In this document: positions 35,121-59,500 of the stretch, piece after piece
Position numbering within the stretch: the first letter of the stretch is position 1
Layout: each line of letters starts with the position of its first letter
Assembly: GCA_043228905.1 (NCBI GenBank)
Contig: JBHGNT010000005.1
Coordinates: 14,322,001-14,386,000, forward strand
Source of the DNA: Azolla caroliniana
Taxonomy: Eukaryota; Plantae; Polypodiophyta
DNA length: 64,000 nucleotides
Direction of reading: 5' to 3'
The notes under the pieces: model-generated
Databases searched by the model: none
Told to the model about the DNA's origin: nothing
Seen by the model: only the letters and a program-made list of their open reading frames with translations
Program-made: the position numbers and the translations under genes

Positions 35121-35327
35121 TAGAGATAGATTTTTCCTTCCCCTCTATGAGAAAAAACATTGCTCTCTCCTTCTCTCTTCAGTGATAGATTTCTCTCTTC
35201 CCTTTTGTCAAATCCCCCCCAAAATTATCGTTCTCCCCATTAATTGCATGTTACCACTTGAAGATACACTTGCATGAAGGAACTCCAGTTTGCATGCCTC
35301 CCACTTGGCGTTTTCTTTAGTTCCATC

Positions 35328-37490: not shown

Positions 37491-38731
37491 TATCGTGAAG
37501 ATTTTCAGCAATGGTGTGAAAATTGCAAGGAACATACAAAATCGAGTGTGGTTCTTCACACACGATATGAAAAAATAATAGTAAAGATACTATTTTAGAT
37601 TAGTTTAATATCTTGGTACGAAAAGATGGATTTCTTCAACAGCTTCCGAATATACTTTATTACATTTGAAACGGACAACTAAATGTCAAGTTATGTGAAT
37701 GTGAAGTTTGAGAAGAAGAAGAGAAAAACAAAACTATGAGATATCCCACATAGATAGGATAAATCAGGATCCCACAGTATATAAGCAGAGCCAGAACTTA
37801 TTACTTTTTGTCTATGTGTGGAGCACAGAAAGTTCTTGCGCTAAACTGTGGCTTAACTACTTGTAATGGTTTTGGAGGACCGGACCGGACGGACAACGAC
37901 GGAACCGGAACCGGAACCAGACGGACAGCAATGGAACCAGACGGACGACGACAGAACCGGGATCGAAACAGGACGGATGGCGATGGAACCAGGACCAGAA
38001 CCGGAACCGGAACCGGATGGCGAGGAACCGAAACCGGAACGGCTGGACGGCGCCGAAGCGGAACCAGATGGGGATGGTGAGCGAACCGGGACCGGCACTG
38101 GATTGGATCACCGGACCGGATAGATGGATGGATCGAACAAGTTGATCACGACGATTTCAGTGTGAAACGAACAAAATCATCTAGACTAAAAAACCTAGTA
38201 AAAATTTATATACAAAGGGATGCAAGCAAGGTTTGAACCTTGCACCTCGAAGATAGATAGAAATGTTTTTTCTATCATTATACTTTCACGTGTAAATTCT
38301 CATATTAGAGCTTGAATGAGTGACATGGTTATCATGCATCACATGTAATGTATGAGCGCCAAATGGCAAACATGCATGACATGCTTTCCATGCATTGTAT
38401 GCATGTCTTGTACCCTCACATGTATCATATGTATGGGGGCATCTATAAAAGAGTGGATGAAAAAGATCAAAGGGGAGCTATGTATTAATCAAGAGTTTAA
38501 TAAGAAGAAAATTCGTTATCCAATTGAAGATATATGTTGTTCCTCAAATCTAAAGTCAAGGGTTCAATCTTAATCTCTCTCTCCATTTCAATCTCTCTCA
38601 ATCTAAAGTCAAGCGTTCTAATCTATCTTAAATCCTTTCTCGCTAAAGCTAGTGCAAACTTCGAATCCTTCCGTTCTAGGACCCCGGCGATTCCGCCTCA
38701 CGATCCGCACGTAGTGACAGATTTTTCACAA
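37491..38731 (+). mobile_element. Solo-type LTR of the Ylt1-like family, homologous to 50724-51743 (reverse)
   Basis: Starts T(A)TCGTGAAGATTTTC and ends ..CCGCCTCACGATCCGCACGTAGTGACAGATTTTTCACAA. Contains an ACCGGA-rich array (~37870-38130) and a degenerate tRNA-like cassette (~38219-38285). A matching TSD was not found. Confidence 0.8.
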
Positions 38732-39828
38732 CCTTCCGTCCCTTGGGTGTTACATCAGTTAATTCCCAAGTCTCTAGAACCATTGTGGGGAAAGTCTCTT
38801 CATGGTCATCGTCTACCCTCTTCACCTCGACATCATTCTCCACGGCTATCTCTGCAGACTCATGGGCCTCGTACCCATTGTCTTCGTCGATCACGCAAGC
38901 TTTTCTCATGCTTGCTTCTTCATCTCTTGATGTTTCGGACACAACATGTGTTCCGAAACACTTGTCTATTCTCAAAGCGGCATTCCCTACTCTTGAGTCT
39001 TCAGCCTTATGCTTAACCGTTGTTTCTCTGCAATATGAGAAGGAAACTTGTTCCACACCTTCTCTCTCGGTATTGTCATACCAAATCTAAGCTTCTGCAT
39101 CAGCCACTTCATTAACCCACATTTCTCGAGAGGTCTCTTCTTCCTCGATCACCATTTGCCTCAGTTTTTGCTCCATTTTAAGCTCCTCTTCAGCATCGAC
39201 TTGCGCCTTTAAGTTCTCAAATGTTTCTCTCATCAAAGCTTCTATGTTTAGTGTCTTCCAATCTTCTCTCTTTGAGCTCTCTTCCTTTGGTGGTGGCGTT
39301 GTCGTGAAGATTTTCGTCAATAGGCGGAAACCGGGGTGGAAGGGGCAAGTCGGTGGTGTGCAACATGTGCACATGTATACTAGGATATGGTGTATAAAAA
39401 GAGAGGGGAAAATTTTGTCCCACATTGTAAGGTCCCTCCCTCCTTGGGCTATAAAAGGAAGGGAGGGGTCACTTATGAAGGGGTTACCTATTTTGTGTGA
39501 GTAAGGTATACCACTTAGTCTAGGGTTCTCCCTCTTCCCATTTCGTTTTAGGGTTAGGGTTTCGGTTAGGGTTTTCTTCTTGGGTTTCCCTTTAGGGTTT
39601 TGCGGATAGTCATTTTGGTGCGGCCATGGCGGCCACCATTGTTGTAACCGTTCGTTGTTTTAACATAACTTGTTGAACAACTTGCCTCCGCCGATCTCTC
39701 CTTCGATGTCGTGGTCTTATTCTTTCCTCTTCTCCTCTTGAGCTAAGCCTCCATATCATGTCCTATTCTTTCTCCTCCACTCCCTAGTCCAAGACCCCCG
39801 CGGTCCCGCCCCTTCTACACGCACGCGC

Positions 39829-40469
39829 TGTCGTGACGATTTTCGGCTACGGTGTGAAACCGAGTGAGACGAATAAACCAAGGATGTGCAACATTGCACA
39901 TGCACTTAGCAAATAAACCTAGCCTAGTGGCACTTGAGTTCATATAGAGGGGTGCAAGCAAGGTTTGAACCTTGCACCTCTAAGATACAAGACAATTGCC
40001 TTACCACTAGGACAACTATCATATAGTGTAAATTTTATGTATTTCCTTTTCATATACAAATTATAGACGAAACTACCATAGAAAACCATGTGCACAAAAC
40101 CATGGTTTTAAACCCATGGTTTGTGCATGACATAAGCAAACCCGTGTGCACAAAACCATGGTTTTAGCCCATGGTTTTGTGCATGTCACGAGCATGGAAA
40201 GACCTATAAAAGCCTCTAGTTGGGCTTGTGTAAGGGGGGCTCAATATGTGATATCACCAACACCATTATCATCAATATAAAATTTGTCTTTATCTTCTTC
40301 ATATTTTTCTACTTCTCAAGTGTACAATTTTTCTTCTTCTCAAGTAAACCATTTTCATTTAATCTTACATTGATCGTCATCTAGCGTCGATAATTCCGCG
40401 AACATCCTCCCCAGTCCAAGACCCCGGTGGTCGCTCGAGTAGCACACGCACGCGCGAATCTTCGCGACA
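39829..40469 (+). mobile_element. Nested solo LTR with 4-bp TSD GCGC
   Basis: GCGC|TGTCGTGACG ... TTCGCGACA|GCGC. TATA at ~40205. Antisense tRNA-like cassette at 39949-40020. Confidence 0.9.
39949..40020 (-). ncRNA. tRNA-like A-box/B-box cassette in LTR
   Basis: Minus strand: GATAGTTGTCCTAGTGGTAAGGCAATTG...GAGGTGCAAGGTTCAAACCTTGC. Confidence 0.6.
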
Positions 40470-40891
40470 GCGCGTAACAACGCGACAGCGTGTTGCCACA
40501 TCTCATCCTCCTTTGATTGTCCATCGTAGAACATGATGTTGTCGACAAGATTCCCATCTTTCTCTTGTCATATTGCCGACATACTCTTTCAACATAGGCC
40601 CAATTTTTGGTGAGGCCATTTGCACCATCATCATCCTCAAGTCGGATTCCAATGGACTTCCTTTCCTTTAGATTTATCGATTTCACGAACATTAGGATTT
40701 TATTCACCCCCACCAATCTTCGATCCCCCTCCGAGAGTTGAGCAAAGAGACTCCCGAACTCAATGAACGCATGCATGGCACTTTGGTGGGTCTTTAATGA
40801 TGATTCCCATTGGTCGAACTCGTATAGATTGCATCTCTTTGTCTCTTTGTAGCTATATGCCTCCATGAGATATCCTCCTGCCATCTCGTTT

Positions 40892-40907
40892 CATGTCGGG
40901 TTCACCA
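40892..40907 (-). promoter_or_regulatory. Primer-binding site complementary to the tRNA-Trp 3' end (second copy ~45393-45406)
   Basis: Minus strand TGGTGAACCCGACATGAA lies 4 nt after the LTR end. It matches the plant cytosolic tRNA-Trp 3' end (..UUCACGUCGGGUUCACCA) as recalled from memory. Confidence 0.75.
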
Positions 40908-41942
40908 AAGATGTCGTGAAGATATGACAAAGATACATGAACTTGAGGTAGGACCCCGGGGCCTCCGACCATAGGATACCAAATTCATGCGTTTATGTTT
41001 TATGAATCAATCAAAATGAGAAAGTTTGGTAATTTTCTATTAACAAAGAAAAGAAAAATTACAATCTATCCCAAGAGTGGGATTCAAAAGTTTTAGGTAT
41101 ATACTGAGATTAATAGATAAGAAAAATTAGGGTTTTTGAGAGATATGGCTTCCGTAAGGAAATTAGGGTTTTTCGAGAGATATGGCTTCCGTAAGGAAAA
41201 TTAGGGTTTTTCGAGAGATATGGCTTTTGTAACATAAATTAGGGTTTTTCGAGAGATATGGCTTCCGTAAGGAAAATTAAGGTTTTTCGAGAGATGGCTT
41301 CGATAAGAAAAAATTAGGGTTCAATCAAGAGATGGCTTTGATAAGAATAAAATTAGGGTTCATTCGAGAGATGGCTTTGATAGAAAAAATTAGGGTTCAT
41401 TCGAGAGATGGCTTTGATAAGAAAAAATTAGGGTTTATTCGAGAGATGGCTTCAATAAGAAAAGAAAATAGGGTTAGGGTTGCCTGTGATAGATTTTTCC
41501 TTCCCCTCTATGAGAAAAAAAATTGCTCTCTCCTTCTCTCTTTAGTGATAAATTTCTCTCTTCCCTTTTGTTAGATTCCCCCAAAAATTATTGCTCTCCC
41601 CATTAATTGCATGTTACCACTCGAAGATACACTTGCATGAAGGAACTCCAGTTTGCATCCCCCCAGTTCAGTTGCATGCATCCCACTTAGCGTTTTCTTT
41701 AGTTCCATGGACTTCACGTTGTCGTGTCTTTCGGCGCTGGATCGTTGCGTGAGTCAGATGGGAACCACTGGGGTTTTAGACTATGAAGAGGAAGAATTTG
41801 AGATGAGTCTAGATATGAATAGATTGTAAGAAAGAGAGATAGAAAACTTGTGAATTCCACAAGTATAATGAATCTTCTTAATCAATATATAAATAAGAAT
41901 ATGACTTTAGATTGAAAGAGAAGAATATACAAACCTCGTGAA

Positions 41943-42434
41943 TAGGGATCGACAACGGTTCGGTTTAGGCTTAGCCGGTTTGGCTTGGATCAGGCCAAAC
42001 CGGTTAAGCCTAAACCGTTTTGGGGATCTCAAACAAGAACCGGTTTGGTAAACGGCTTAGAAACTTGTTTTTGACCCGGCTTGGAAACCTCCCCCTCTCT
42101 CTCTCTCTCAGATGATGGACCACTATATAGTATACATTGTGCAAGATCTCCCTGAGACTCTCTCTCACGTCTGTGTGGTTTCGATTCTCCTTCTCTCTCC
42201 CTCTCTCTCCCCTTATCTGTTGTCTTCCTCCCTCTCTCTCCCTCTCTCTCCCCTTATCTGTTGTCTTCCTCCCTCTCTCTCTCTCTCTCTCCCCTTGACT
42301 GTTGTCTCCCTCCCTCTCTCTCCCTCTCTCTCCCCTTATCTGTTGTCTTCCTCCCTCTCTCTCTCTCTCTCTCCCCTTGACTGTTGTCTCCCTCCCTCTC
42401 TCTCTCTCTCTCCCCTTGTCTGTTGTCTCCCTCC

Positions 42435-42475
<41 letters not shown>

Positions 42476-42718
42476 CTTGTCTGTTGTCTCCCCCCCTCTC
42501 TCTCTCTTTCTCCCTCTCTCCCTCTCGCTCTACAATTTCTAAACGGCTTACCTACCTTAATTGACTTAGTATGCTAGCGCCGGTTTGGCGAGGCTCAAGC
42601 CAAGCCAAGCCGAGCTCAAACCGTTAAGGCAAGTTCAAGCCTAAACTGAGCCGCTAAGCCGCTTTAAGCTGGTTAAGACAAACAATTTAGGCTTGAGCCG
42701 AGCCGTTGCCGATCCCTA
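41943..42718. mobile_element. hAT-type MITE (776 bp) inserted in an LTR
   Basis: Terminal inverted repeats TAGGGATCGACAACGG / CCGTTGCCGATCCCTA. 8-bp TSD CTCGTGAA. Absent from the sister LTR (~45625). Internal CT-rich minisatellite ~42190-42530. Confidence 0.95.
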
Positions 42719-43087
42719 CTCGTGAATCCCACGAGTATAGTTTATTAATCGGTAATTTAGAAACATATCCAATTTCCAAAGATTTTCCCCCCTATTACAT
42801 TGTGCTCCCCATCCTTATATAGTGATGAGAGAGTATTAGCAATACATGCTTTTTCTCTAACTATGAACTTTATGATTTTTCTATCAATAGACTATATGCT
42901 TTCTCTAACATGTTTTTCCTAAAAGTGATTATGCGTTTTTTATGAACTATAGTGTTCATGCACGCTAGATATGCATGTGTAGCTTTTCTTTTATCACATT
43001 GCGTTTTCTTCTAACTAAAGCTTTTTTATCTAGAAAATATACATGAAATAACGTTTCTATGTGGGATATCTACTTTTTAACACTTAT

Positions 43088-43160
43088 GATGTGTTAGTAT
43101 AATGGTAAGGCTTTACATTATAAACATGGAGGTATAAGGTTTGAATCTTGCCCTATGCGT
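43088..43160 (+). ncRNA. tRNA-like A-box/B-box cassette in LTR (sister copy ~45976-46050)
   Basis: TTAGTATAATGGTAAGG...GGAGGTATAAGGTTTGAATCTTGC. Confidence 0.5.
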
Positions 43161-46100
43161 GTAATATATATTTTAATATCTCTTTCTTTTTCATCATATT
43201 TATTCAATTGGTTATTTTATATGTTTTTCACGTAGTGTACGAATTACACTACGACACTCGCCCCCTCCGAACCCACAAATCCTCCGGTATGTCCCAAAGT
43301 TGTTGGAGCTCGTTATTCTCCTTCATTCGTAATACCCTCTGTTTCTCCCGCAATGTTGGCTTTGTCTCTCCATTTTGAGCACGTCTATTCCTTCCACCCG
43401 AACCATTGTCGTCATCTGATCCACCATATTCTTCGTTCCCTCTTTGCATTGCCATGATCGGTTCTCATGGCTCCTTGTGGTCTTTTTGAGCTTAACCATT
43501 CATGTCTCATGCATGTGCCACCTTCGTTCCGACCGTCTCCTTGGTCAAGACACTCCGCACTTTGTCCACCTTCGTCGTACAATCTCGCGTTAGAGTTAAC
43601 AATCTTCATATTATACCCCTCCTTTGTCGAGATCTCATCCTCGGTAACACCCTTCAAATCCGCTTGGCCCGCTTGGTCCTTGCCATCCGTGGTAGTGTCT
43701 TTTCTTGGCCTCTTTCTTGTCTTCATCAACCTCGACTTCTTTCTGGATCGGTCTCGTCCAATCGGCTTTCAGTTGGATTAGCTTCTGATCAGATTCGTAT
43801 TCAGCCGAATCACACTCGGTTGATCAGTTTCGATCGAGTAGGCCCCCTTCCGGGTCAGGTTCGATCAATCAGTTTCGATCTGGGTTGTCTTTCTTTTACT
43901 CATGTTCATTGGGCTCAACCGGTTCAACCTCCGTCTGAGTCGGATTAGCTTCTTTCCCGATCAGTCTCATCCAATCTGCTTCTAGCTGGAACAATTTCCA
44001 TCTGGGTCAGGCTCGACCGATCGGATTTTGGCCGAATCCACTTCCGCTTGGTTTGGCTTTCGTTTAGATCAGAATTTCGGACGGATCATCTTCCATCCGA
44101 ACTGGCTTCCGACTTTACCTTCCTTGCCGCCATCTCCCATCTCTCCAGTCTCACGTTGGTTCTCGGACACAACCGTCGAAGTCTTTAGAATTAGTGGGCA
44201 GGAATCCTCGGTATTATCATCCTCCGTCGTTTCACCCATAGCCACCTTCTCGGCTATCTCTCCATCGTAGGCATTAGCTTCGACCTTCGTTTTCTCTCCA
44301 ACACCTTCCGTCTCTTCGGTCTCACATTACCTTTCGAACGCAACCACCAAAATCTCTGGAATTAGTGGTGGGAAAGTCTTGATACGACCATCAGCCATTC
44401 ACTCGTCCATAGGCACCTCTGATTCAATGTCATCTTTCGTGGCTACCTCCTCAGTCACGTCCGCCTCACACTCTCTATCTCCCTCGATCATGCAAGCATA
44501 GATTATGCTTACCCCTTTCTCACCCGATGTTTCAGACACTCGTATCCCGAAACCGTTTTCCACCCTTGAAGTAGCATTCGCCACTCTCAAGTCATCGACC
44601 TTATCCTTGATCGTTGTTCTTTTGCAAGAAGAGAGGGTGTCTTGTTCTATACCCTCTCCCATGGTACTGACGAATCGTACTTCGGCCTTCGTATCAGCCA
44701 CATCGTGCATCCTTAATCGATCATCCCTTATAACCCATGTTGTTGCCGATGATATCTCGTCTTCCTCTTATCATATCTTCGGCATACTCTTTCGACTTCA
44801 GCCCAATCCTCGGTAAGGCCATTTGCACCGTCATCATCTTCGAGTTTGATCCTGGTGGCCATCATTTCCCTTTGATTGATCGTTCTTACAAACATTAGGA
44901 CTTTATCCATCCCCACCAATCGTTGTTCCCGCTCCGAGAGTTGAGCAAAATCATACTCAAACTCTAGGAATGCTTGTGTCGCGCTTTGGTGGATCTTTGT
45001 CGATGCCACCCACTAGTCAAACTTGCATCGATCACGTCCCCTCGATCTCTCATAGTCATATGCCTCTCGTAAAGCTTCTACAAAGGACCCCCATGTCGAG
45101 TTTTGTTGCCGTATCTTGTGTATTCTCTCTTGTAGCTCATTCGTGGCCACCCGACTCAAGGATATCACTCGCAATCCTTCCGGTATCCCGCATTGCATCA
45201 TCTCCGCCTTGTAGTCACGTAGATAGCGTGACACATCATTTCCATTGAATTGTCCGTTTCTTTCCACAAGCCGCTCTACTGCCGATTTGATCTCCGACAT
45301 TGTGTGTTGTTCTTGTAGTATGCGGTTGAGCATCATCATCATCATGGTCATCGCCTCTTGTTGATTCTCCATCTCCTTGCCACCCGTTTTCCCGTCGGGT
45401 TCACCAAATGTGCCATGCCTTTCGGTGTCAAATCATTGCGTGAGTCGGATGGGAACTGCTGGGATTTTGGACTAGGATAAGGAAGAATTTGAGATGAGTC
45501 TAGATATGAATAGATTGTAAGAAAGAGAGATAGAAAACTTTTGAATCCCACAAGTATAATGAATCTTATTAATCAATATATAGATAAGAATATGAATTTA
45601 GATTGAAAGAGAAGAATATAGAAACCTCGTGAGTCCCACAAGTATAGTTTATTAATCAGTATTTTCCAAAGATTTTCCCCCTATTACATTGTGCTCCCCA
45701 TCATTATATAGTGATGAGAGAGTCTTAGCAATCCATGCTTTTTCTCTAACTATGAACTTCATGCTTTTTCTATCAATAGACTATATGCTTTCTCTAACAT
45801 GCTTTTCCTAAAAGTGATCATGTGTTTTTTATGAACTATATAGTGTTCATGCACGCTAGATGTGCATGTGTAACTTTTTCTTTTATCATGCGTTTTCTTC
45901 TAACTAAAGCTTTTTTATATAGAAAATATACGTGAAATAACATTTCTATGTGGAATATCTACTTTTTTACATTTATGATGTGTTAGTATAATGGTAAGGC
46001 TTTACATTATAAACATGGACGTGCAAGGTTTGAATCTTGCCCTATGCATGTAATATATATTTTAATATCTCTTTCTTTTTCTTCATATTTATTCAATCGG

Positions 46101-46334
46101 TTATTTTATATGTTTTTAACGTAGTGTACGAATAACACTATGACAACGTTTAGTTACGACATGTTACCACTCGATGATACACTTACATGAAGGAGCTCTA
46201 GTTTGCACCCCCCAGTTCAGTTGCATGCATCCCACTTGGTGTTTTCCTTAGTTCCATGGACTTTATGTTGAGTTACAGCATCCCACATAACGTTTACTTT
46301 ACTTGCATGGCCTCCACGTTCAGTTATGGCCCGT

Positions 46335-49300
46335 TGTCGCAATTTTCCGCGGGTACGTGTCGAAAGGGGCGGGACCACGAGGGTCTTGGACGAGGAAAAG
46401 ATGGATGTTGAGAAGCCGACTCCCTCCGGTCCCGGCTGCACCGGTTGTGGTGCAAACCGGTGCGATTCCGGACGCATACCGGCGGTTACTGAACATGGGA
46501 GAGGGAGAGAGAGAGAGACCACACGCGCAACACCGACTCAACACACGCCTCTTATGTACAGGAAACAAAGGGAAAGAAACACACTCGATACCAACAGAAA
46601 TACAAATATGCACAACCTTTTATATATTTAATTACAAGAGCAAGATACAACTCCGGCTTCAAGCCGGACCAAGGAAGGTTAGGTTACAACAGTCGTCTAC
46701 TGCCAAGTCGCCGATCTGGGAGCTCTCAGGCTCGTCGCGCCAAGCGGGGTCTTGCACAAGAAACCGAGCAGAAGCAAACCCCATTGAACATACAAGCTCT
46801 TCACCAGACTAAACCCTAAATATACACGAAGGAGAAGAAGAAGTCGAAAGCTGCCAAGATGAAACCCTAAACGAAATAGGGTGAAAAGACCAAAGTACAA
46901 ACCCTAAGGGAATAAGAGAAAGATGAAGACCAAGAACTGCCAAACCCTAAATCTACAAACCCTTCGCATCGTCCCGATTCTCGTTCCGCGTTGATCTCCA
47001 CTACCTTTGTCCCCTAGCCGCCACCTACCTTCTCCTTGCTCTTACATTGCCATGGAGACCGAACTGCCAAGGTCTCCAGAACTAGTGTGGAGGATCCCTC
47101 TCCGGCCTTCTATGTGAGATCCCCTGTGCCAGCAACCCATCGTCACGCCTTTATTCCCGCTTCGGCACCTCCGTGTGCCACACATCCCCTTATCGTGTTC
47201 AGCTCCATCCATGCCGAACTCTGGTTACTTTCCATGCACGCGTCATCGGCCCTCGCCCGAGCAGATCGTGCATCGCCGCTTCTCCGCGTACTGGTGTCCT
47301 CCGCGTTCGAGGAACACCCGATAGTAACCCACTTGGCCACTTTCGTCTTGTGTTGTTGCCTCAGGTTTGGAGCCTTCCGCTTGGCGTCGTCCCCTCGCCC
47401 CCACCAGCTTGTTACCTCGGGTTTGGCTTGCCACGCCAGTCGTTGCCACTCCGACTGCGCCGCCGAGATCTCTGAAGCGGGTGTGGAGGATCCTTCTCCG
47501 GCCCTTGATCCTGTTTCTGGTCTCCAATCCGTGCAGTCTGTTATGCGCTCATGCTCTCATTCCTAGCACCGTCGTGTGCCGTCTTCCGCCTTCCTTGTTC
47601 AACATCGCTTGTGTCGAATGTCGTCCCGTACCCGTGCTTTGCTTTGGCCCTTGCTGGCCACTTGCACGTCTCTTGCTCCACTCTCGGGTGTGCCCTTTCC
47701 GGCTCAGCACACCGTTCCTTGAGCGGGTGTCCCCGACAACTTATCCGAAGATCACCCTCGCCGCGTCTCGGCCCGCATGGCCTCCTTCATTCCCGTGACG
47801 CCTCGGCGATTCAGTGCTTTTGCTGTTGCCGCCTTCCATTACCCTCGGTCTCACGTTGCCACGTCGGCCGAACTGCCGGGGTTTCTGGATAGGTGTGAAG
47901 GATTCTTCTTGGGCCTCCAATTTGTTGGGTCACCAACTCGTGTACCGAGCGCATCCGATCTTTGTCTTGCGGACTCTAGTGGTTTGGTCTATATCCAGTT
48001 CGTGGGCTCATCGCTAGCCTGATACCTCTTTCCGCTCTTTTTCAGCCCTTTTGCTTGATCCCGTTCACCTACCGCCACCGTCCTTCTCTCTCTAAGTCTC
48101 ATGCCGGTTTTTGGGCCGACTGCCGAAGTCTCTGGATCGATGTGAGGATCTCCATAGGATCGCCCATCCGCACATCCCACATCGTCGGTTCCCGTTTCTT
48201 GCCACCACAATCCTTCTCACTCGGTCTCACGTTGCCATGTCAGCTTGAACTGTCGGTGTCTTCGGATCCGTGTGGGGATCCCATAGGACCGTCTTCCACG
48301 TTGTCTTCCGACCAGGTCGGTTCTCGACTCTCTGTCCTTCGTCCTTGCCGGAAGGCCCGATTTCAGTTAGTGGCCGCCTTGCCGGCCCTAAAACCGCCAT
48401 GCCCGCTTGTTCTCTCTTGCCGCATCGCCGGTTCCCATTTCCTGTCGCCACCATCCTTCTCACTCAATCTCACGTTACCATGTCGGTGTCTCTAGAACAG
48501 TGTGAGAACCTCATAGGACCGTCCTATCGTTGCCTTTGCCCTCGTCCCCTTACCGCCACCGTCAATCTCTTGGTCTTATGTCGACTCCGCTTCCGACCGC
48601 TGAAGTCTCTAGATCCGGTGTGAAGGATCCTCCTTGGGCCTCCCATTTTTCCAATCCTATCCCAGGTCTTCCTTCTTCGCATGTCGAGAGGGTAGCTTGC
48701 TCCACACCTTCTCTCATGGTACCGATGTACCGTGTTCCGGCCTCCCCGTAGGGCTGCTTCTTCCTCCCTTCCGGATCGGTTATTTGGAAGTCCGCTGTCA
48801 TGTTGTTTTTCACACACGATATGAAAACTATATAAAAAAATAATGAAATAATTATTTTAGATTAGATTAGTAGCTTGTTATAGGAATATGGATGTACTCA
48901 AGAGCTTCAAAACGTATTTTACTTGATACAAAATAGACAACTACATATCAAATTATGAGAACATCAAGCTTGAGAAGATAGGGAAATATGATTTATCCCA
49001 CATAGATAAGAAATTTAAGGCCCTGGCTATATAATCACATTGAGATCCCTTATTTCTCATTTGTGCTAAGAGCACTTTGGCTACTTTGTCTAGATGGATG
49101 AATGTGGCTAAGTTTCTAGAACTGGTCGGCAATGAAATGGGACTGGCTGGTAATCAAACTAGAACCGACCAGCAATCAAACTGGAACCGGTTGGTCGTCA
49201 AATCGGAACCGGCCGGCAATGAAACCCGAACTGGCCGGAAAGCAAACTGGAACCGGTCGGGAAAGCAAATTGGAACCAACCGGTAAGCAAACCGGAACCG

Positions 49301-50723
49301 GCCGATGAGCAAATCGGAACTGGCCAAAAAGCAAACCGGAACCGGGCGAAGCCGGCAACCGGAAATTGGCGACCGGACGGAACCGGTGATCGGGCGGAAC
49401 CGGCGACCGGACGAGGCTGGACGCAGACCGGACGGATCAAAGCATGGGCTAAACTTTACGGATTATTGGATCATGTGGCAAATTAAAGTAAAGTAAAGAA
49501 AACTAAAGTAAAGGCCATGTGTACGGTCGCATGCAACTAAAAGAAAAAGCCATGCAACTAAAAATGGATGCAACTAAAAGTAGAGTCTATGCAACTAAAA
49601 GTGGGCATGCAAAGTAACATTGAAGGCTATGATCAACGGAGAACTCCATATATATTCCATTTTTTTCCCTACACTCATCCTCTCTCAATTTTTATTTTCT
49701 TTTCCTTCTTAGCTCCCTTATCTTATTGAAGCCATAACACTCAAAAACCTTGATTTTCCCTACGGAAGCCATAACACTCAAAAACCCTAATTTTCCCTAC
49801 GGAAGCCATATCTCTCAAAACCCCTAATTTTTCTTTTCTATTAATCTCAGTAAACCTAAAACTTCTGAATCCCAATCTTGGGGCATATTGTAATTTCTTT
49901 TCCTTTGTTAATGAAAACGATTAAATTTCTTATTTTTGTTAATTGTTAAAAATATAAAAGCACGAATGTGATATCCTCTAGTCGGAGGCCCCGGGGTCCT
50001 GCCTCAAGTTCACGCATCCTCGTCGTATTTTCGCGACACTACTCCACCCGGTTCTCATCCGGGCTCGTCCGTCACTTTGCGTTGTCAGGTCTCATTCTCT
50101 TGCCGCCACCGTTAGTATCTTGGTCTTACGTCGGATCTGATTCCAACCGCCGAAGTCTCTAGCCTGGTGTGAGGTGTCCCATAGGACCAGTCTTTGTTCT
50201 TCGCATCCGGATCAATTGTATTGGCCGTGACCTCGGTATCCTCGCCGCCACTTTCCGTCTCTTAGGTCTTCCTTTAGTTCTCGGACGCAACCGCCTAAGT
50301 CTCGAGAACGAGTGTGGAGAACCCATACTTCAATCAACCGCCTCTTTCGTTTCTCCCCGCCTCCGTCGACCTCCTTCCTTGCGCTTCCCCACCATCTCCG
50401 TTCTCTTTTGGTCTCACGTTGCCACGCCGGCCGAACTGCCAAAGTCTCCAGTCAAGATGTGGGGATACCGATTTCGTAACGACTCTTGACGACTTGTCCC
50501 AGGCCACCGACCCTTTTAATGGTATCGGTGCAAAGCATCCGCTCTATGATTGATCAAGCCCCGTCTGGGCTTGATTCTCCAATGTCCGGAGTTTTAGCTC
50601 CGATGCCGATCCCGCCAGACTCGTTCTGTACTCTCGATCATCTTCTTCCCAATTCCCGACCTTCTCCCGATCGGTCTTTTGCCCCATGTAAAAGAGGGTG
50701 GCTCGTCCCGCACCCTCTCCTGT
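46335..50723 (-). mobile_element. Ylt1-like-superfamily LTR (U5 end at 46335, extends to ~46960) followed by a GC-rich degenerate repeat region
   Basis: TGTCGC terminus with the shared U5 motif (reverse GTCCAAGACCCTCGTGGTCCCGCCCC). AAACCCTAA repeats at ~46810-46950. About ten dispersed copies of CCGAACTGCC..GTCTCTGGATCGGTGTG.GGATCC between 47060 and 50470. Confidence 0.6.
48796..50038 (+). mobile_element. Solo-type LTR of the same family as 34587-36200 (opposite orientation)
   Basis: Both ends match the reverse complement of the 34587-36200 ends. ACCGG-rich array at ~49130-49440. Flanks CCGC / CTAC do not match exactly. Confidence 0.8.
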
Positions 50724-53700
50724 TGTCGTGAAGATCCGTCACTACGCGCGGATCGTGAGGCGGAACCGCCGAGGTTTTGGACCGGAAGGATTCAAAGTCG
50801 GTACAAGTTTTGGTGCAAGCTTTAGCGAGAAAGTACTTAGGATAGATTGGGAAAGAGAGAAGTTGAGATTACACAATTGAGAGAGATTGATTGAACTTTT
50901 AACTTTAGATTTAAGAAACAAGTTACACGATCAATTTGATAACGAATTTCTTCCTCTTAATTTTCATAAAAAAAAACCGTCTTTTTTTTTCTTCCCCCTT
51001 CCTTCTTTTATAGATGCTCTCATGCATATGATGCATGTGAGGGTACAAGACATGCATAAATTGCATGTTTGCCATTTGGCGCTTATGTATTACATGTGGT
51101 GCATGATAACCATGTCACTCATTTTAGCTCTCATGTATGAGAATTTACATGTAAAAGTACAATGATAGAAATATAATTTCAACTAAATAGCATGGCTTAA
51201 TGGTAAGCCAATTGACTCCTAACTTGGAGGTGCAAGGTTCGAATCCTTACTTGCCCTCCTTGTATATGTAAATATGTATATATATATATTTATCTAGCCG
51301 TCGGATGCCTGTGTCTCACTGGCGCCGGATGCCGTCCATCGGCTCCATCGCCGGTCCGGTTTTGGTTGGCCAAAACCCTTTACGAGTAGCTAGCCCACCT
51401 CCACTCTTAGTTCAAGTTACCTTGAACTCTCTATGCTCCATACATAGACACAAAGATAATATCTTTTGCTCCACCTTATATATGATGAGAGCCGTATTTG
51501 TCGTGCCTATGTGGGATATCTCAAAATTTTCTCTTTTCCTTTCACAAACTTTATACCCTAATATTTTGACATTTAGTTGTCCGTTTCTCGTGTAATAAAG
51601 TGCATTCGAAACCTCCATCATTTTGTACTTAGATATTAAATTGATTTAAAATGTTATCTTCACAACTATTGTACTATGTGATTCATACTCGATTTCGTAC
51701 GTTTTTTGGGATTTTCACACTATTGCCGAAAATCTTCACGACATCCACCCCCACCAAACCGCACGTCCTCCGGTACGTGCCAAGAAGAGAGAAAGTGAGA
51801 TTTCGGCTACGATGATCAATTAGATTCCTCCATGTCTTCATTTACATCCGCCCCATTATGTTCATCGTTGAGGTAGTCGAGGTCAGGATCCTTGTCTTGT
51901 CTTTTCTTGATAATCTTTACTCTTTTTCCCGCAATGGGTACGAACAACCTTGATCCGTCTAGTTTCGCAAGGTGGTATGTGGCATTATCGTTGGCACTTG
52001 TCACCACATACGGCCCGAACCATTTTCTTGCGAACTTCCTTGTTGTACTGTGTTGATTGTCAAGGGTGCTGTCGTAAACCAAAACCCAATCCCCTTCTTC
52101 AATCTTCTTGGGACAAAGTCGATGCGTGTTGTCGAACCGAACTTTGTTCTTTACTCGGGCGGCCTTCATCATCTTTCGCGCTTTTTCTAAATCTTCAGGT
52201 CTTCTTTCAAGTTGCCTTATCCGCGCCGCTAATAACTCTTCTCGGCTCATCTCGTTCTCCCACGATATCGCTACCCATGAGGCGATCGTCCTTTCGATGG
52301 GCATAATCGGCTTTTGTCCATACATAAGCTCCGTCGGCATATACCCTGTCACCGAGCTATGTGTCGTTCTATCGGCCCACAAGGCATAGGGTAATAATCG
52401 TGGCCAATTCCCGACTCGACCGTTGCATGCCCGTACGATGGCTTTAACGATAGGTCCATGCCCTCGCTCGATCTTCCCATTTGCTTCCGGATTGTAGGCA
52501 GTCGTGAGAGAGAGCTTCACGCCTAGTCTTTCGAAGAGCTCTGTCGCTTCGTGCGCGTCCAACTCCCCTCGGTCGGCCACTATCTTCCCTACACATCCAT
52601 ATCGGCAAACAACATCTTCAAGTAGAAATTTGCAAACAGCTGAAGTCGTCTTATTTGTCAAGGCTTGTCCTTCCACTTGATTTGTCAAGTCTTCCCTTGC
52701 CAGCGCTAAGTACTTCATTTGTCCCACTCCCATTGGCATCGAGACCAGATTCACCATCCATTTGAAGTGTATGGTGAGTGGGTATGTCGGCTTTAACTCA
52801 TCACGATGACGTATATTTGAATATACTTGGCAAGTTTCGCATGTGGACACGAAATGGAGTACATCTTTGTACATGCTTGGCCACTAGTACTTCTCCTTCA
52901 ACTTTTCGAACGTCGCCCATGTTCCTCTATGACCTGCCCAAGCACTCTCGTGGAATTCGGTCATCAACGTCTCTTGCTCTTCTTTCTTTACCACCACTCG
53001 ACGTGGTATTCCTGTCCTTCTTTTTGGATGTCGCCAAAGGAATCCTCCCTTCAAGAAGTATCGGTAAGCTTTCTTTCGGATTCGTAGGGCCTCCTCCTTT
53101 GTCAACGAAGCATCTGTCGTCAATGTTCTTAGGAATCTACCGATGAGTAACCACTCTCCTTCGTACTCGTTCTCGTTGAAGGCGTGGAGGGTTTGCATGT
53201 CCTGGTCTTCCGCCGACAATCGAGCCATCTTGAAGAAGTCGAGGGCGACATCTTCATCTTCCAAAACCATGTTACTTCCATTTGAAAATCTTGCCCTTGA
53301 CAGCATGTCAGCCATGGCGTTCTTCTTCCCTGCAATGTGACGGATTTCTGGGTTTAAAGATTTGATGTAGGCGATCCACCTTAGCATAGCAAGATCTGGG
53401 GTTGCACATCTCGAGAGCATTCCGAGAATTGGGAGACAATCTGTTTCTATTATCACTTCTGACCCGATCAGGTAATCTTTGTCCGTCTTCACTGCCGACA
53501 CAATACCCCAAAGTTCCCACTTGACTTGGGCATATCTTTGTTGCCGTTCGCTGAGAACCTTTGCTCCGAACCGGACGACATATCGCGCATTATCTTCACC
53601 TTCTTGATTGATGACCCACCCGATTCCGGTTGGGCTCGTATCTACGGTCACGTAAATTGGTTTCCCTTCAGCATAGTCGGCCTTCCTTAGTGACGGAGCT

Positions 53701-56592
53701 TCAAGAAGCAGTTTCTTTAATCTTCGCATCGCCTTTGTGTGCTCGTCTCGCCATTCGAACTTTATTCTTTTCTTTAGTAGTCCATATAACGGTTCGGCGA
53801 CATGAGCGTAGTGAGGAATCTATATATGATAAAACGCGCATGCTCCAAGGAACCTTCGAACCTCCGTTTGGTTTTCGCATTCTTCTTTCATGTCTTGGAT
53901 TGCGTTCACTTTGGATGGCGAGGGCTTCCGGCCGTATGCTCCACACAAGTGACCTACCACCAAGATCTCCGGTTGCCCGAATGCGGATTTTTCTCCCGAA
54001 AATGTCAAATTCGCATCTTCGAGCCTTTGAAGCACCTTCTCGCAATCTTTCATATGATCCGCAACGAACTTTCTACAACCTTCCTTATCTTTCGATTCAT
54101 CTTTCTCCTCATCCGAACATCCTTTTATCGGAATATCATCCAAGAATGGCATCGTGATGTCCGGAATGCAATCCTTCAAGACTTTATTCATGGCATTCAC
54201 CATATGAGCCACCGAGTTCGTTGCGCCTTGGGGTAAGGTACACATCCGCACAAGCCCAATCGGAGTCCTCATGGTTGTAATGTCCCGACTGTCGATCGCC
54301 AATTGGAATTGGTCATATCCGAAGTAGAGATCGCCAATGGAGTAGATGGACTGGCCCGCAAACGCGTCGGCAAATTCGTCCACGCTCGGACCGATTCCGG
54401 CATTTCGAATTGTCACCTTGTTGATGGGTTGAAGATCCTGGATGAATCGCAATGATCCATTCTTCTTCGGCACCGTGAACCACCTATTGGAATAAGGAGC
54501 ATTCGACGGTTCTAGAATTCCCATACTCACCTTCTCCTTTAAGAGCTCGATTAGCTTCGGAAGGTATGCTCTCGGAACCGGTATCGGTTTCAAATTCCAA
54601 GGCACATGAGGCACCGTGAAGATCACCATCGGCTCTATAACCTTTGGGTCGGCGCATCCGATTTCTCGTGGGAAGAATGCGAAAGCCTTCCCATGTCTCT
54701 CAAGCATATCGCGAAACATTCGCTCCTCTTCAGGGAGAAGGAAATCCTCCTTTCCAACTCGTAGCTTCCCCTTCGTCTCTTTGGTGAAGACATGACCTAT
54801 CTTCTTCGGATCTCTTAAGCTTGGATTGTTAGTGACTTCCTTCATCTTTTGCCAACTATCTTCCGGTAGCGGAACCGCAACTGGCTTGATCTTCTTATCC
54901 ACCGTTTTATATTTCGTGTTGATGTCAGCTTCCTTCATCGAGATGCTACGACGGTATTCATCGATGATAGCGTACATGTTGACGGAGTTAACCGAAATCA
55001 CGCGTTGGTTGTGAAGATAGCTCAAGTCCACGACGTCCTCGATTTCGCCGATGGTGTCGTTAAATGAGGCTTCTTCCATAATATGAGTCACGAACTCTCC
55101 TTCTTCTATTATGTTCTCTTCTTTCAGCATCTTCTCGAATTCTTGTATCCGGTGCTTGTGCTTCTTGTCGGGTAGTACTAGTTTGCATGCGCCACTAGGT
55201 GTGACACATGTTGCTTCTCCTTGCAATCCACGCACTCTTCTTTCTTGTGGGGTCTTGTGATTGCTCAGACTATTTGTGCCCCATGCTTCAATAGTCCGCT
55301 CTAAAAATCCGAGGATTCGCCTCCAAGACTATCTCGATTCCTTTCATGATTGGCTCACACCGTTAGGAATTGGACCGATCTTTGGTTGTCAAGACTCTTT
55401 ATTCGTGCGAAGGCTGCTCCATTATCGAACACTCTGGTCTCCATCCGAGATGATGTGATATAAGGTTGCCCTAGGATGACAGGATGCGACACCGATTCTT
55501 GTACGAAGAAGTGTTGATCCATCTCCACATCCCCGATCGTGACTTTGACATTGGGACAAGCTCCGTACAAGTCCTCCGTAGACTTTGTTGCCGTGCGAAT
55601 CTTCCATCCGTGGTTTGTATTGATTGGCCATCTTCCCTTTTTGTAGAAGTCGGTTGACATGAGGTTGATCTCCGAGCCGTGGTCGATCAAGGCTAGGACG
55701 GTCTCTTTCTTCTCCCCGATCTTCACCGGCGTCTCCGTTGTCGCTCGTGCCCAATGAGGTCGAGTGTAGTGGCTGTCCACCATATCTTCATCGATTTCGT
55801 CTCTTGCCATCGTTATGGCATTCGTTTTTGCTTTTTGCGGCTTCTCTTCTTCCTCATCCGATTGTTGTCTCTTTCTCTTTACAAGGTCCACGATCGTGTC
55901 ATGGAACTCCTTCTTCGTAATGCCAAGCAATTCCCTCAAGGACAAAGTTATGTGGCTATCAAGAACTCGTTCTTCGAGAATCTTCTTTAGGTCCGTCGTC
56001 TGCTCTATGTCTGACCTTAGCTTGTAGGTAGGTATAGTCCTTGTCCTCCGAGTGGGGTCTTCGACACCAACCTTCACGGGCCGAACCGTTTCTTCAACTC
56101 GTATGCTCGGCTCCCCTTTTCGGCTTGATTCTCGTTCCTTTGTTTGTAAAGGTCGAATCGTCTCCGCATCGTCCTTCTTTTTCACGTTCCTTGTTTCATG
56201 TCTTTTTGATGGCCCTTGCTCTTCTATTCTCTTTCTCTTTTCTTCGACGAACACCTCGTGGTTGTCGCACATCACCTTTGCGAGTATGGTGTTGTCGTCC
56301 ACCGGATCCGACCACCCGGTTATGCTTTGCACGCTTCGGTCTGCAAGCTCTACCTCGTTCGATGTGATTTTTCCCTTCTTCTTATATTCGAGAACGGAAG
56401 TCCAAAACTTTGCTCCCGCTCTAGCAGCTTCAATCTTGTCTTTCCCGACTCTTATTCTGGCCGACGCAGCATAGTGCATCGCATCCACATGAGTCGCATC
56501 GGCATCCTCGATAGATTTCTTCATTCCTCCTCTTCCGAAATTCACCCGTAGGGGTCTTCTAGTCTCACTTGAGCAGATCATGTTGTCCTCTA
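50724..56592 (-). mobile_element. Fungal (Ylt1)-like Ty3/gypsy element: gag C-terminus/PR (56592-55355), RT (55235-53820), RNaseH (53729-52884), INT (52874-51816), PPT, 3' LTR 51743-50724; 5' part displaced by an insertion at 56593
   Basis: PR ALIDHGSEIN. RT SNAPYSNRWFTVPKKNGSLRFIQDLQPIN, LPQGATNS and PFLDDIPIKG. RH VDTSPTGIG and ETDCLP. INT ADRGE..NGKIERGH and GPYVV. PPT at 51744-51760. Several stops and frameshifts. Confidence 0.92.
51186..51258 (+). ncRNA. Best-preserved tRNA-like cassette in an LTR (D-arm, partial anticodon arm, T-arm; no acceptor stem)
   Basis: TGGCTTAATGGTAAGCC (A box, GCTT/AAGC stem) ... GAGGTGCAAGGTTCGAATCCTT (B box in an AAGG/CCTT stem). Confidence 0.7.
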
Positions 56593-59500
56593 TGTTGTTA
56601 CCGGCCGGCAAAGGAGTCCAGAGTGGGAAACGGAGAGCTAATTAAGTAGTAGGAATGTGGTTGTAATTAAGCTATGAGTGTGGACGGACGGACCGGAATC
56701 GGTATGCCGTTCCGGATCCGGACCGATCCCGAACAGGTGCGGATGGCACCGTTTTGTAATACAGACCGAAACCTATTTAAAGGCTCGGATACAATGTAAT
56801 AGTTAGCGGTTAATTAATGAAAGCTTAAGCGTTGTTATCTCTCTGTGTTAATTGCCGTTCTGTCTTAATTGTTATATCTTACGCGTGTTATGAAAGACGA
56901 TCCTAATAAGTAACTTAATTAAGTCGGATTAAGCGTTGAAGTCTAATCCGGTTGCCGTAACACCCTTTGGTGAAGTGTCTCCCGTAGACACCCTGTGTTA
57001 GGCCATTGTCCGGCCCGAAGAGTTAACACAGTTTTTGGCGACCACGATTCCTGTTTTTGCAGCGAACAACGGCACAGATGGATGTCTAGATCAACGCACG
57101 ACCTGGTTACAGATCGAACTCGACGCCTTGCCGAAAGGCAAAGGAGACGCGAGGCTTTCCAGCAAGCGGCGCAGGAAATTAGAGCGGATCGCTCGTTTTC
57201 CAACGTAATCCGGAGAGTAGCGGAGGACTCCCTCTGGTTACAGCAAACATCGCACCCGGACGACGGCAGTAGCCTAAGCAGCCTCCGGGAAACCAAATCC
57301 CTTCTCCATGCGTTGGCAAACGGAGAAGGCGAAGCAGAGGCCTTTTCAGCATATGAATTTGACTCCGAAGGGGAATACAGCGTGCACACGAACTACCGTA
57401 GCAGCAACGAAACCCCGGGCGGACCGGAGGATGGAGGATCGGATACCTTACTGACACCGGAACCGGAACCGGAAGTGCTAACGCTGGAACCCCTGAAACC
57501 AGCAGAGGAAGAACGACCTCCGACACCGGAAGTCGAAGAGGAGAGGCCTTCGTCACCAAAGGAAGAGAAACAACCGACACCGGAATCAAATCGGGAAAGA
57601 CCACCGACACCGGAGAAAATTCCGGAATGAGCACCAACACTACCAGCCCGCGCACCGATACCGGACGACGACATGCCGTTCCAGTACTCCAAGTATAGAG
57701 ATGATCCGGACGCGGAAGCTCATGTGCACGCCTTTGAACAGACATGGGAAGCCAACCATGTGTCGCAGCGATTGACCCCAGAAGAAGAAGAACGCTCTAA
57801 GATAGCGGAATTTGGCGTCACATTGGAGGGACCAACAGCAAGATGGCACCGGACGCAGGACTCGTCTACCATCAACACCTTTGCAGATTTAAAAGCTAAA
57901 TTCATGCATTTTTTTCAAAAGGAGGTGGACCAGACCGTAATGGTAGGCTTATTTTATACCATCCGACAAGAGGCAGGGGAGAGCATTCCCCAATTTGTTG
58001 TCCGGTTTCAACGGATGCATAGTCAGATTGCCCGTGCACCCCCGGAGGAGGAATTACGGACGATATTCCTAAACGCGCTCCAGGAACCCCTACGCACGGT
58101 TTGCACGGTAATCGATTTCCGCACTAGTACCATCGACCAGGTCATTGATCGGGTGAGAGAGATGGAAAAGACAAGCTGCTGGCTCACACTGCACTTCAAC
58201 GGGCGTTACCGTCCGATGAAGACCTCCGGTTTCGGCAAGCAATACAGTGCACAACCTGCTTGAATTCCGGACACTCGGCTCTAGAATGCACTATGAGTAC
58301 GCAATGTGTAATCTATCAATCCAAGAGCCATACGACGGATAGGTGCGAGTATAATTTGTTGAATCGGCAAGCACCGCCCGTCCGACAAATTGAGCCACGC
58401 AGCAGCTGGGATGAAGAAGACGAACGCTGGCGGCGAATGGACCATGACCGACCGGCACAGGATGTCCGATATGGCGAGCGACGGGAAAATGATGTCCGGT
58501 ATGGCGATCGACGGGAAAATGATGTCCGATACGGTGATCGGCGAGATAACTATGACCGGCATGATCGGTACCAGGATTACAATAGACGATACGAACAGTA
58601 CGACCGGGAGCACTCCCCCGAGTATCGTCAGCAATGGGAGGAATACGGCAGATATAACGGGCAACCCCGTCAAGAGTACCGTAATAAGAAGAGCTATAAC
58701 AAAAAACGGCCTTTTAAAAAAGGCGGCTACCCCCGGGATCTGGAACAAGGCGCTCCAAGTAGCCAACTGGTACAAAACCCCGCGCGTACCGTAGGACCTG
58801 CCCCGGGTACAACAGACAATGCCGAATCTAGCAATACCCGGAAAGCCTACTGCTACTACTGCCGACAGGAAGGCCATTATAGTAACCAATGCCCGGTGAA
58901 GAGCTATGAAAAACGACCGGCGGTAAATATGGTAGTCCCTGAGGTGGCAGACCTGCAGCAGGTGACCACAAGGTCGAAGGGCATGGCCAAAGAATGGGAG
59001 ACACAGGAGACCATCCGGAAACAAGCAACGGAATGGGTAAAGAAAGCAAACGAGCAGAATGTCACAGACTTACAACAGCAAAAGGAGAACACCGCAGGGC
59101 TTGCCGGCGGTAGTCACTCCGAGAACGAGACATGGCAGGCGTTGCAAGAATGCCAGATTACGTTACCACTAGGAAGACTCCTACAACTCGTGCCAAGATT
59201 CACGGAAGGACTAAAGACGGCCATGACGGCAGGAGAACCATCACCGGCACCGATACTCTTCTCGAATTCGGAGGAGGGACCAACAGTGGTAGACACCAGC
59301 AGTCCGGTAATCACTGCCATTGTAAAAGCGAAAGAACTCCTCGGCACAGTTATAGACGGAGGCTCTGGGGTAAATGTAATAAGCCTCCGGACGTGTGATG
59401 ACCTAGGAATCCACGAGTGGGAGCCGTGTCCGTTCTGGTTGCGGATGGCCGATACAAGCTCAGTGCGGCCGACAGGATTAATACGGAAATTAGAAGTCAC

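What the first reader, a model, noticed from the sequence alone, without database searches (positions are those of the whole stretch)
38219..51258. Antisense tRNA-like Pol III cassette built into LTRs of several Ylt1-like families
Seen: five LTR copies from three otherwise dissimilar LTR types (38219-38285 -, 39949-40020 -, 43088-43160 +, 45976-46050 +, 51186-51258 +) carry a ~70-nt module. It has an A box (TGGCTTAATGG / TGTCCTAGTGG / TAGTATAATGG) and the conserved GAGGTGCAAGGTTC/TGAA..CTT B-box T-arm. The module is always antisense to the element and lies in the U3 part of the LTR. The D- and T-stems pair but there is no acceptor stem. Known: Cassandra elements carry Pol III 5S sequence in their LTRs, and TFIIIC-bound B boxes can act as chromatin barriers. 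Inference: this is a retained functional module (Pol III antisense promoter or anti-silencing insulator) rather than random SINE insertions.
Basis: partly seen in the sequence, partly recalled or inferred. Interest (0 to 1): 0.8.

Follow-up and report, generated by a model that had tools for sequence, protein, structure and literature searches.

The report
Backward tRNA promoter inside retrotransposon LTRs
Jumping genes from two unrelated lineages in this plant carry a backward-facing tRNA-gene remnant just upstream of their own promoter; between distant families mainly its two polymerase III signal boxes are kept, so it likely docks host transcription factors that help keep that promoter open.

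Summary
Real, and wider than reported. The ~70-nt tRNA-like A/B-box module is a built-in part of U3 in several Phygy-type Ty3/gypsy families, both autonomous and gag-only: 2,232 exact genome matches against 0 for the control; 53 of 53 inspected copies lie in LTRs; all oriented copies are antisense, 105-265 nt upstream of the TATA box. Between families with 63% identical Pol the module keeps its place, boxes and spacing while the spacer is randomised. There is no stem covariation, so it reads as a DNA element. Against: 26 of 30 sampled Phygy LTRs lack it, boxes decay at the background rate in young copies, and expression could not be tested. One reported copy has lost its A box. Best reading (0.5): a retained TFIIIC/Pol III site serving the LTR's own promoter. 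Closest known: Helenus/TRIMp3, which are short non-coding elements. The scan noted Helenus-type and antisense tRNA relics in other genomes, but not this sequence.

The parts
51186..51258 (+). Module of family A, both boxes intact: A box 51193-51203, B box 51237-51245; antisense to the element
50724..51743 (-). 3' LTR (1,020 nt) of a Phygy element, family A; PPT next to 51743; TATA near 51012; CATG-rich block between module and TATA
51816..56641 (-). gag (DUF4100) and RT, RNase H, integrase frames of the family A element, interrupted by stops in this copy
43088..43160 (+). Module in the 3' LTR of a family C element: A box 43095-43105, B box 43139-43147 with C56T
45976..46050 (+). Module in the 5' LTR of the same family C element: A box 45984-45994, B box 46028-46036 with C56T
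41720..46145 (-). Family C gag-only element: 5' LTR 45411-46145, tRNA-Trp-type PBS near 45395-45407, PPT next to 43256, 3' LTR 41720-43256 with a later insertion
39949..40020 (-). Module of family B: A box 40014-40004, B box 39970-39962
39829..40469 (+). Solo LTR of family B (641 nt), 4-bp target duplication GCGC, TATA near 40205; inserted in a module-less LTR (39300-40487)
   Evidence: orientation from full copies L045-L047
38219..38260 (-). Half module of family A2: B box 38238-38230 only; A box removed by a 36-nt deletion
37491..38755 (+). LTR of family A2 (ends approximate), TATA near 38444
9010..9083 (-).
8990..9280 (+). Chromovirus-type LTR fragment (family H) followed by gag remains at 9521-10192 (43% identical to family E Gag)

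Best explanation
A tRNA-derived A-box/B-box unit sits backwards in U3, upstream of the TATA box, in several Phygy families and at the LTR tip of one chromovirus clade, and it is likely kept as a docking site for TFIIIC and the Pol III machinery that would help keep the LTR's own Pol II promoter open. Shown: position, orientation, inheritance with the LTR, box-specific conservation between distant families, absence of RNA covariation. Inferred: capture from a tRNA-derived SINE head or tRNA gene at least twice (once or more in Phygy, once in the chromovirus ancestor); TFIIIC binding; TFIIIB placed on the promoter side because the unit faces away; a nucleosome-poor or barrier effect on the promoter. 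Because U3 of the 3' LTR is copied to both ends, every new insertion would carry the unit between flanking chromatin and its promoter. The benefit would be quantitative, acting on which lineages found new families, not a requirement for each round of transposition. Any Pol III transcript (first T4 mostly 75-130 nt from the predicted start) would be a by-product.
For: Families A and G (Pol 62.6%, Gag 37.8% identical) align collinearly from TATA through the CATG block into the module; there the A-box end, the GAGGT stretch and the B box are kept and the spacer is at shuffle level (0.30 against 0.41). Between A, B and C the flanks are near shuffle level while the module is 66-79% identical. A14, not fixed by any search pattern, is invariant in 31 of 31 cluster representatives (representatives are related, not independent). 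The B-box CpG decays mostly to the damaging TG in single copies (15 TG, 6 CA of 82), yet the majority state is the tolerated CA in 25 of 37 clusters, CG in 7 and TG in 5. No covariation in any stem. A second lineage, 25% identical in Pol, has an antisense B box 6-35 nt from the LTR start in 20 of 20 integrase-picked copies. Precedent for the geometry: A and B boxes of a divergent tRNA-like sequence are needed for Leishmania U2 snRNA transcription (PMC4950102, passages); TFIIIB/TFIIIC limit silencing spread in yeast (PMC9540200, passage).
Against: No binding, methylation or transcript data. Within family A there is no excess constraint on the boxes (Fisher p=1.0, 8 events in boxes). C56T stands in both LTRs of 4 of 34 pairs and T54C in 1, so damaged copies were probably transposed; a control CpG behaves alike. 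Both boxes are intact in only 55 of 82 LTRs. 26 of 30 PBS-picked Phygy 5' LTRs and 28 of 28 readable LTRs of the other chromovirus clade lack it, so it is dispensable for success. The CATG block is better conserved than the module. The B group has a one-base-off A box, and positions outside the boxes (43-52, T33) are also conserved, which TFIIIC binding does not explain. The CA clusters may descend from few events. The A-box-to-TATA distance is not fixed, unlike the trypanosomatid case. The passages read on plant barriers give no plant example of a tRNA-gene barrier.
Confidence: 0.5

Rival explanations
1. Passive relic: a SINE head landed in ancestral LTRs, the harmful sense insertions were lost, and the antisense remnant hitchhikes in U3 without a present role. 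Similar modules in dissimilar LTRs would be separate insertions of one extinct SINE, or LTR exchange between helper and gag-only elements.
For: Neutral-like decay in young copies. Most Phygy LTRs lack it. The label needs at least 3 changes on the Gag tree. A free two-headed tRNA-like repeat exists in this genome and one head matches the window's chromovirus module in about three quarters of 107 aligned columns. Six AT-rich metagenome loci (2 distinct sites) of another organism hold a similar head without LTR or transposon protein.
Against: At an orthologous position in A and G the spacer is randomised but boxes and spacing persist. No SINE body, tail or own target duplication was seen. No free copy of the Phygy-type head among 53 inspected. 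The unit is retained across a chromovirus clade whose integrase ends are only 52-81% identical. Family G carries it twice per LTR.
Confidence: 0.25
2. The antisense Pol III transcript is the functional product: a 75-130 nt RNA complementary to U3 (in chromoviruses running into the PPT and integrase end) that tunes the element's own RNA or small-RNA response.
For: Both boxes are kept, not the B box alone. First T4 falls at 82-85 (C), 75-98 (A2), 107-132 (B') from the predicted start. Foamy viruses carry Pol III RNA cassettes in U3 (PMC6950176, passages).
Against: No conserved fold or covariation. Spacer and 3' sequence are free to change. The T4 position scatters from 76 to over 400 in family A. 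An antisense RNA acting by complementarity would not need a fold, so this is only a partial objection.
Confidence: 0.15
3. Self-restraint: the assembled Pol III complex dampens the neighbouring Pol II promoter (tRNA-gene-mediated silencing, recalled from yeast), so module-bearing families trade activity for persistence.
For: Module-bearing families are the minority among PBS-picked LTRs, 4 of 30. Pol III complexes affect neighbouring Pol II transcription (PMC4228148, search listing only).
Against: Module-bearing families are recently active: LTR pairs 99.5-100% identical in B, C, E and G.
Confidence: 0.1

Closest known systems
Helenus / TRIMp3 (Kojima 2024, PMC10886601; main text parts 1-4 of 6 and passages read, supplements not read)
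   Same: tRNA-derived sequence inside both LTRs; boxes A and B conserved; no functional tRNA; proposed origin from a SINE insertion into an LTR.
   Different: Helenus are non-coding TRIMs of 311-1,263 bp in which the Pol III promoter is proposed to transcribe the element itself; the paper expects autonomous partners to use Pol II and not share LTR sequence. Here the hosts are 3.4-8 kb protein-coding elements, autonomous ones included, the unit is antisense and cannot make the genomic RNA, and a TATA box lies downstream. The only plant Helenus reported is a 120-bp-LTR family in Selaginella. The text does not state Helenus orientation.
Cassandra and Ajax (5S-derived LTR promoters; as described in PMC10886601)
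   Same: Pol III promoter inherited inside LTRs.
   Different: 5S-type promoter, non-coding TRIMs; Cassandra is transcribed from it into the element.
Foamy virus U3 Pol III miRNA cassettes (PMC6950176, passages)
   Same: Pol III unit in U3 of an autonomous retroelement, upstream of the Pol II start; dispensable for replication but beneficial.
   Different: Those make folded dumbbell pri-miRNAs of about 120 nt; here there is a tRNA-derived layout, no conserved fold and antisense orientation.
Divergent tRNA-like elements upstream of trypanosomatid snRNA genes (PMC4950102, passages)
   Same: A non-cloverleaf tRNA-like sequence facing away, whose A and B boxes serve the neighbouring gene; open chromatin is one proposed mechanism.
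   Different: The neighbour is a Pol III gene at a fixed distance of about 104 bp; here it is an LTR TATA promoter at 105-265 nt, in a mobile element, untested.
Phygy lineage of plant Ty3/gypsy (Neumann 2019, PMC6317226; passages and one supplement row)
   Same: 4-bp NCGN target duplication, tRNA-Trp primer site, short non-chromovirus element.
   Different: Described from a moss; no tRNA-like LTR unit and no gag-only derivatives in the passages seen.

Membership tests
Helenus (TRIMp3) | [quoted passage not shown] | tested here: met
Helenus (TRIMp3) | Short non-coding TRIM (311-1,263 bp) | tested here: not met
   3.4-8 kb elements with Gag or Gag and Pol frames
Helenus (TRIMp3) | Pol III promoter able to transcribe the element itself | tested here: not met
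   antisense in 18 of 18 resolved LTR pairs and 6 of 6 more
Phygy (Ty3/gypsy non-chromovirus) | 4-bp NCGN target duplication | tested here: met
   ACGT, CCGG, CCGT, GCGT, ACGC, GCGC against PMC6317226
Phygy (Ty3/gypsy non-chromovirus) | tRNA-Trp primer site; 7.7-10 kb; no chromodomain | tested here: met
   shared PBS in all families (its reading as tRNA-Trp is recalled, no Trp gene was among the tRNAs fetched); about 7.9 kb; no chromodomain
Phygy (Ty3/gypsy non-chromovirus) | RT-RH-INT groups with reference Phygy sequences | not testable with these tools
   no reference set; named relatives are Riccia and Adiantum proteins at about 54-70%
Ylt1-like fungal Ty3/gypsy | RT/INT groups with Ylt1 | not testable with these tools
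   no named Ylt1 hit among the 120 listed; PMC2864245 passages list Ylt1-like elements from fungi only
Tcn1-type chromovirus (families E, H, J) | Chromodomain and self-priming instead of a tRNA primer site | tested here: met
   Chromo and SH3_Tf2-1 domains; 12-nt complement of the PBS inside the LTR of family E; placement against reference Tcn1 not tested
tRNA-derived SINE | Free copies with body, tail and own target duplication | tested here: not met
   53 of 53 inspected copies have LTR flanks; 53 is a small share of 2,232
tRNA gene | Cloverleaf with acceptor, D, anticodon and T stems | tested here: not met
Type 2 Pol III promoter / TFIIIC site | A and B boxes at workable spacing | tested here: met
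   the A box of the B group is one base off
Type 2 Pol III promoter / TFIIIC site | Bound by TFIIIC or transcribed by Pol III | not testable with these tools
   only contig-level runs were offered

The most novel reading that the evidence does not exclude
Autonomous LTR retrotransposons of two unrelated lineages independently captured a tRNA-type promoter, turned it away from their own promoter, and use it as a portable Pol III-factor anchor that shields every new insertion from silencing: a cis-acting anti-silencing device built from host tRNA machinery, and a natural test bed for tRNA-gene barriers in plants.
Probability: 0.35. Interest if true: 0.82.

Novelty: new variant of a known kind. 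Interest (0 to 1): 0.62.

Why it matters
Small-RNA-gene promoters in LTRs are described for short non-coding elements that are thought to need them for their own transcription; that account cannot apply to an antisense unit in protein-coding elements with a TATA promoter. If the unit protects or boosts the LTR promoter, it shows a new way for retrotransposons to resist silencing. It also supplies thousands of natural variants (intact, CpG-decayed, deleted, module-less sister families) to test whether TFIIIC sites act as barriers in plants. Some 4,000 such sites matched in this genome could also compete for TFIIIC and confuse tRNA and SINE annotation.

Tried and rejected
tRNA gene: ARAGORN 0 and Rfam no tRNA in the window; 0 in 7 module loci. 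Parent tRNA: not assignable; only 62 tRNA matches were scored and the anticodon positions vary freely. Folded RNA: rejected (29 of 37 cluster representatives aligned, 8 near-duplicates or indel-bearing ones left out; the D stem was tested in the shifted register that pairs best in family A, and a gap shifts the T-stem register in 6 rows). An extended hairpin around the B box is visible by eye in A, B and C but in different registers. Expression: no RNA holder listed; both layings had contigs only, which show neither strand nor start, so no verdict. Relatives in viral contigs: none. Phygy LTRs of other named plants could not be reached. Free donor for the Phygy-type head: not found; the free two-headed repeat matches it only at the boxes. 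Landing pad for Pol III-targeted integration: not tested systematically; nested insertions seen lay at varied places. Splice-donor reading of the GGTAAG stretch: rejected, it is the tRNA D-loop and is altered in several chromovirus subfamilies. The module HMM missed families G and E, so further diverged modules may be missed. Paper searches found no description of an antisense tRNA-like unit in LTRs of autonomous elements; the library lacks most subscription journals and Repbase reports, and the Helenus supplements were not read.
Full report
Setting. The window is from a land plant (a TOC159 chloroplast import gene at 884-3259; genome 523 Mb). From 34.5 to 57 kb it is a nest of related LTR elements.

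Observation. The five stretches are there. Four have an A box and a B box at tRNA spacing; a strict pattern finds these 4 in the window against 0.01 in shuffles. The fifth (38219-38285) lost its A box in a 36-nt deletion; 17 of 19 other copies of that LTR type have the whole module. Both family C copies carry C56T. No tRNA is called.

Genome-wide. A pattern joining the D-loop end to the B arm has 2,232 exact matches, and the reversed control 0. A looser pattern that excludes these adds 1,728, control 0. With the module masked, 53 of 53 inspected genomic copies have flanks that match LTRs, as do 73 of 80 metagenome loci; most of those are 70-95% like the families here. Six of the other seven are two AT-rich sites of another organism without transposon proteins.

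Host elements. Of 20 regions fetched around close matches, 18 resolve into LTR pairs, and the module is antisense in all 18. Family A is autonomous: about 7.9 kb, Gag of 735 aa with DUF4100, Pol of 1,170 aa. Families B and C are about 3.4-3.7 kb in full copies, with one frame of 440-784 aa whose start is a Gag capsid region 32-36% identical to A. They share the primer site, the PPT type and a 4-bp NCGN target duplication. These are the features of the Phygy lineage (PMC6317226, passages and supplement row); named Pol relatives come from Riccia and Adiantum. 'Ylt1-like' could not be tested.

Who has it. From 60 of 150 RT-picked family A regions, 83 LTRs of 49 elements were recovered by a flank anchor; 82 carry the module and both boxes are intact in 55. 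Among the first 30 of 5,209 primer-site matches only 4 have it: 3 by HMM and one (family G) with two diverged copies seen on inspection. On a Gag tree of 54 rows the label needs at least 3 changes: it is in A and its relatives, C and B, and absent from a sister clade of 13 rows and from 8 rows nested beside B (G was mislabelled 'none' there). Module-bearing promoters are AT-rich, CpG-poor and rich in CATG (GC 0.32-0.40, 4-10 CATG; 9 LTR types), module-less ones are GC-rich (0.47-0.60, 0-2 CATG; 6 types). The unit thus belongs to one promoter architecture.

Conservation. Between A, B and C, BLAST aligns only the module and the termini; flanks are near shuffle level, the module 66-79% identical. 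That alone could be repeated insertion of one SINE. The stronger case is A against G (Pol 62.6%, Gag 37.8%): the LTRs align collinearly from the TATA box through the CATG block into the module, where the A-box end, GAGGT and B box persist and the spacer is random. Spacing from G18 to G53 is 35 nt in 186 of 202 modules. A14, fixed by no pattern, is invariant in 31 of 31 representatives; the other invariant columns were fixed by the search and prove nothing. The B-box CpG decays mainly to TG in single copies (15 TG, 6 CA of 82), but clusters are mostly CA (25 CA, 7 CG, 5 TG of 37), the state that keeps the box consensus; the number of independent events is unknown. There is no consensus fold and no covariation.

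Results against. In 34 LTR pairs of family A, inherited against post-insertion changes are 2:6 in the boxes and 46:155 elsewhere (p=1.0). C56T is in both LTRs of 4 pairs and T54C in 1, much like a control CpG. So a copy with a damaged B box can probably still give offspring. The CATG block is better conserved than the module. Most Phygy LTRs do without it.

A second lineage. The loose pattern brought up family E: 5.7 kb, chromodomain, 5-bp target duplication, a 12-nt complement of its primer site inside the LTR as expected for self-priming, Pol 25% identical to A. Its module is antisense at the very start of the LTR. Of 50 loci picked by the integrase SH3 domain (the top 30, plus 20 that I chose from the rest of the 150 listed to spread over families), the 20 in the E/J/H clade all have an antisense B box 6-35 nt from the LTR start (17 by pattern, 3 read by eye after a parse failure), and none of 28 readable LTRs of the other clade has one. 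E shares no flank with Phygy LTRs. The window holds one such LTR at 8990. Its module resembles one head of a free, roughly 200-nt repeat made of two convergent tRNA-like heads in (GA)n tracts (1,663 first-look candidates, 15 loci read), a possible donor or derivative.

Mechanism. Shown: an antisense, box-conserved, unfolded tRNA-like unit 105-265 nt upstream of the TATA box, inherited with U3 in two lineages. Inferred: TFIIIC binds it; facing away, it puts TFIIIB on the promoter side and sends any transcript away from the Pol II start; the complex keeps the promoter accessible or bounds silencing from the flank; the gain is small per round and visible only between lineages (0.5). Rivals: passive relic (0.25), functional antisense RNA (0.15), self-restraint (0.1). 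The geometry has a tested precedent in Leishmania U2 snRNA (PMC4950102, passages), though there the neighbour is a Pol III gene at a fixed distance. Expression could not be tested: only contigs were available.

Comparison and novelty. Helenus/TRIMp3 (PMC10886601, parts 1-4 of 6) already shows tRNA-derived promoters in LTRs, but in short non-coding elements thought to be transcribed from them, and expects autonomous partners not to share them. This unit fails two Helenus features (size and coding; orientation). Foamy viruses have Pol III cassettes in U3 that make folded miRNA precursors (PMC6950176, passages). Nine paper searches found no report of the present arrangement; subscription journals, Repbase reports and the Helenus supplements were not seen. 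Earlier notes of this scan mention Helenus-type elements and antisense tRNA relics inside retrotransposons of other genomes, none with this sequence. Verdict: real, a new variant of a known kind, function likely but unproven; interest 0.62.

Noticed in passing
   Followed up: yes
L342-L356 (about 1500-1700 in each): Free repeat of about 200 nt made of two convergent tRNA-like heads, inserted in (GA)n/(TC)n tracts, sometimes in tandem; 1,663 first-look candidates. Mode of spread unknown.
   Followed up: partly
L041-L047; window 41720-46145: Young gag-only Phygy derivatives (3.4-3.7 kb in full copies, LTR pairs up to 100% identical) with a capsid-like start and a long tail without Pfam match; resemble TR-GAG elements (name recalled). 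L043 is a tandem array sharing LTRs.
   Followed up: partly
L326, L327; L308, L338-L340: Family G carries two modules per LTR, 165 nt apart; relatives show further tandem copies, and L049 has two copies 463 nt apart.
   Followed up: partly
window 51012-51180 (-) and matching parts of A2 and G: A CATG-rich block of about 170 nt between module and TATA box is 73-83% conserved between families with 63% identical Pol; likely the enhancer; contains RY-like CATGCA motifs (label recalled).
   Followed up: partly
window 34587-36200, 40912-41720, 48796-50038: A further Phygy LTR type shares the start of U3 with A and A2 but has no module and carries 38-nt and 167-nt tandem repeats.
   Followed up: partly
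window 39919-39970 (+): In family B the near-palindromic B arm gives a weak sense-strand A/B pair as well; not seen in the related B' family, probably chance.
   Followed up: no
L322:2282 and 2517: One contig of run X1 joins the LTR self-priming complement to the primer site on opposite strands; a weak, single-contig hint of the self-priming duplex.
   Followed up: no
L391, L394, L401 (LTR start): In family J the B box sits in the loop of an 8-bp inverted repeat that begins at the first base of the LTR.
   Followed up: no
L203, L207, L234, L261; L260, L265: Two AT-rich metagenome sites of another organism hold a head like the Phygy module outside any recognisable LTR.
   Followed up: partly
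L081, L088, L089, L098, L099: Tandem arrays of tRNA-Lys/Asn, tRNA-Ile(TAT) and tRNA-Arg(TCT) genes in this genome.
   Followed up: no
window 41942-42718: Insertion with inverted-repeat-like ends and a (TC)-rich tandem core inside the family C 3' LTR; probably a MITE.
   Followed up: no
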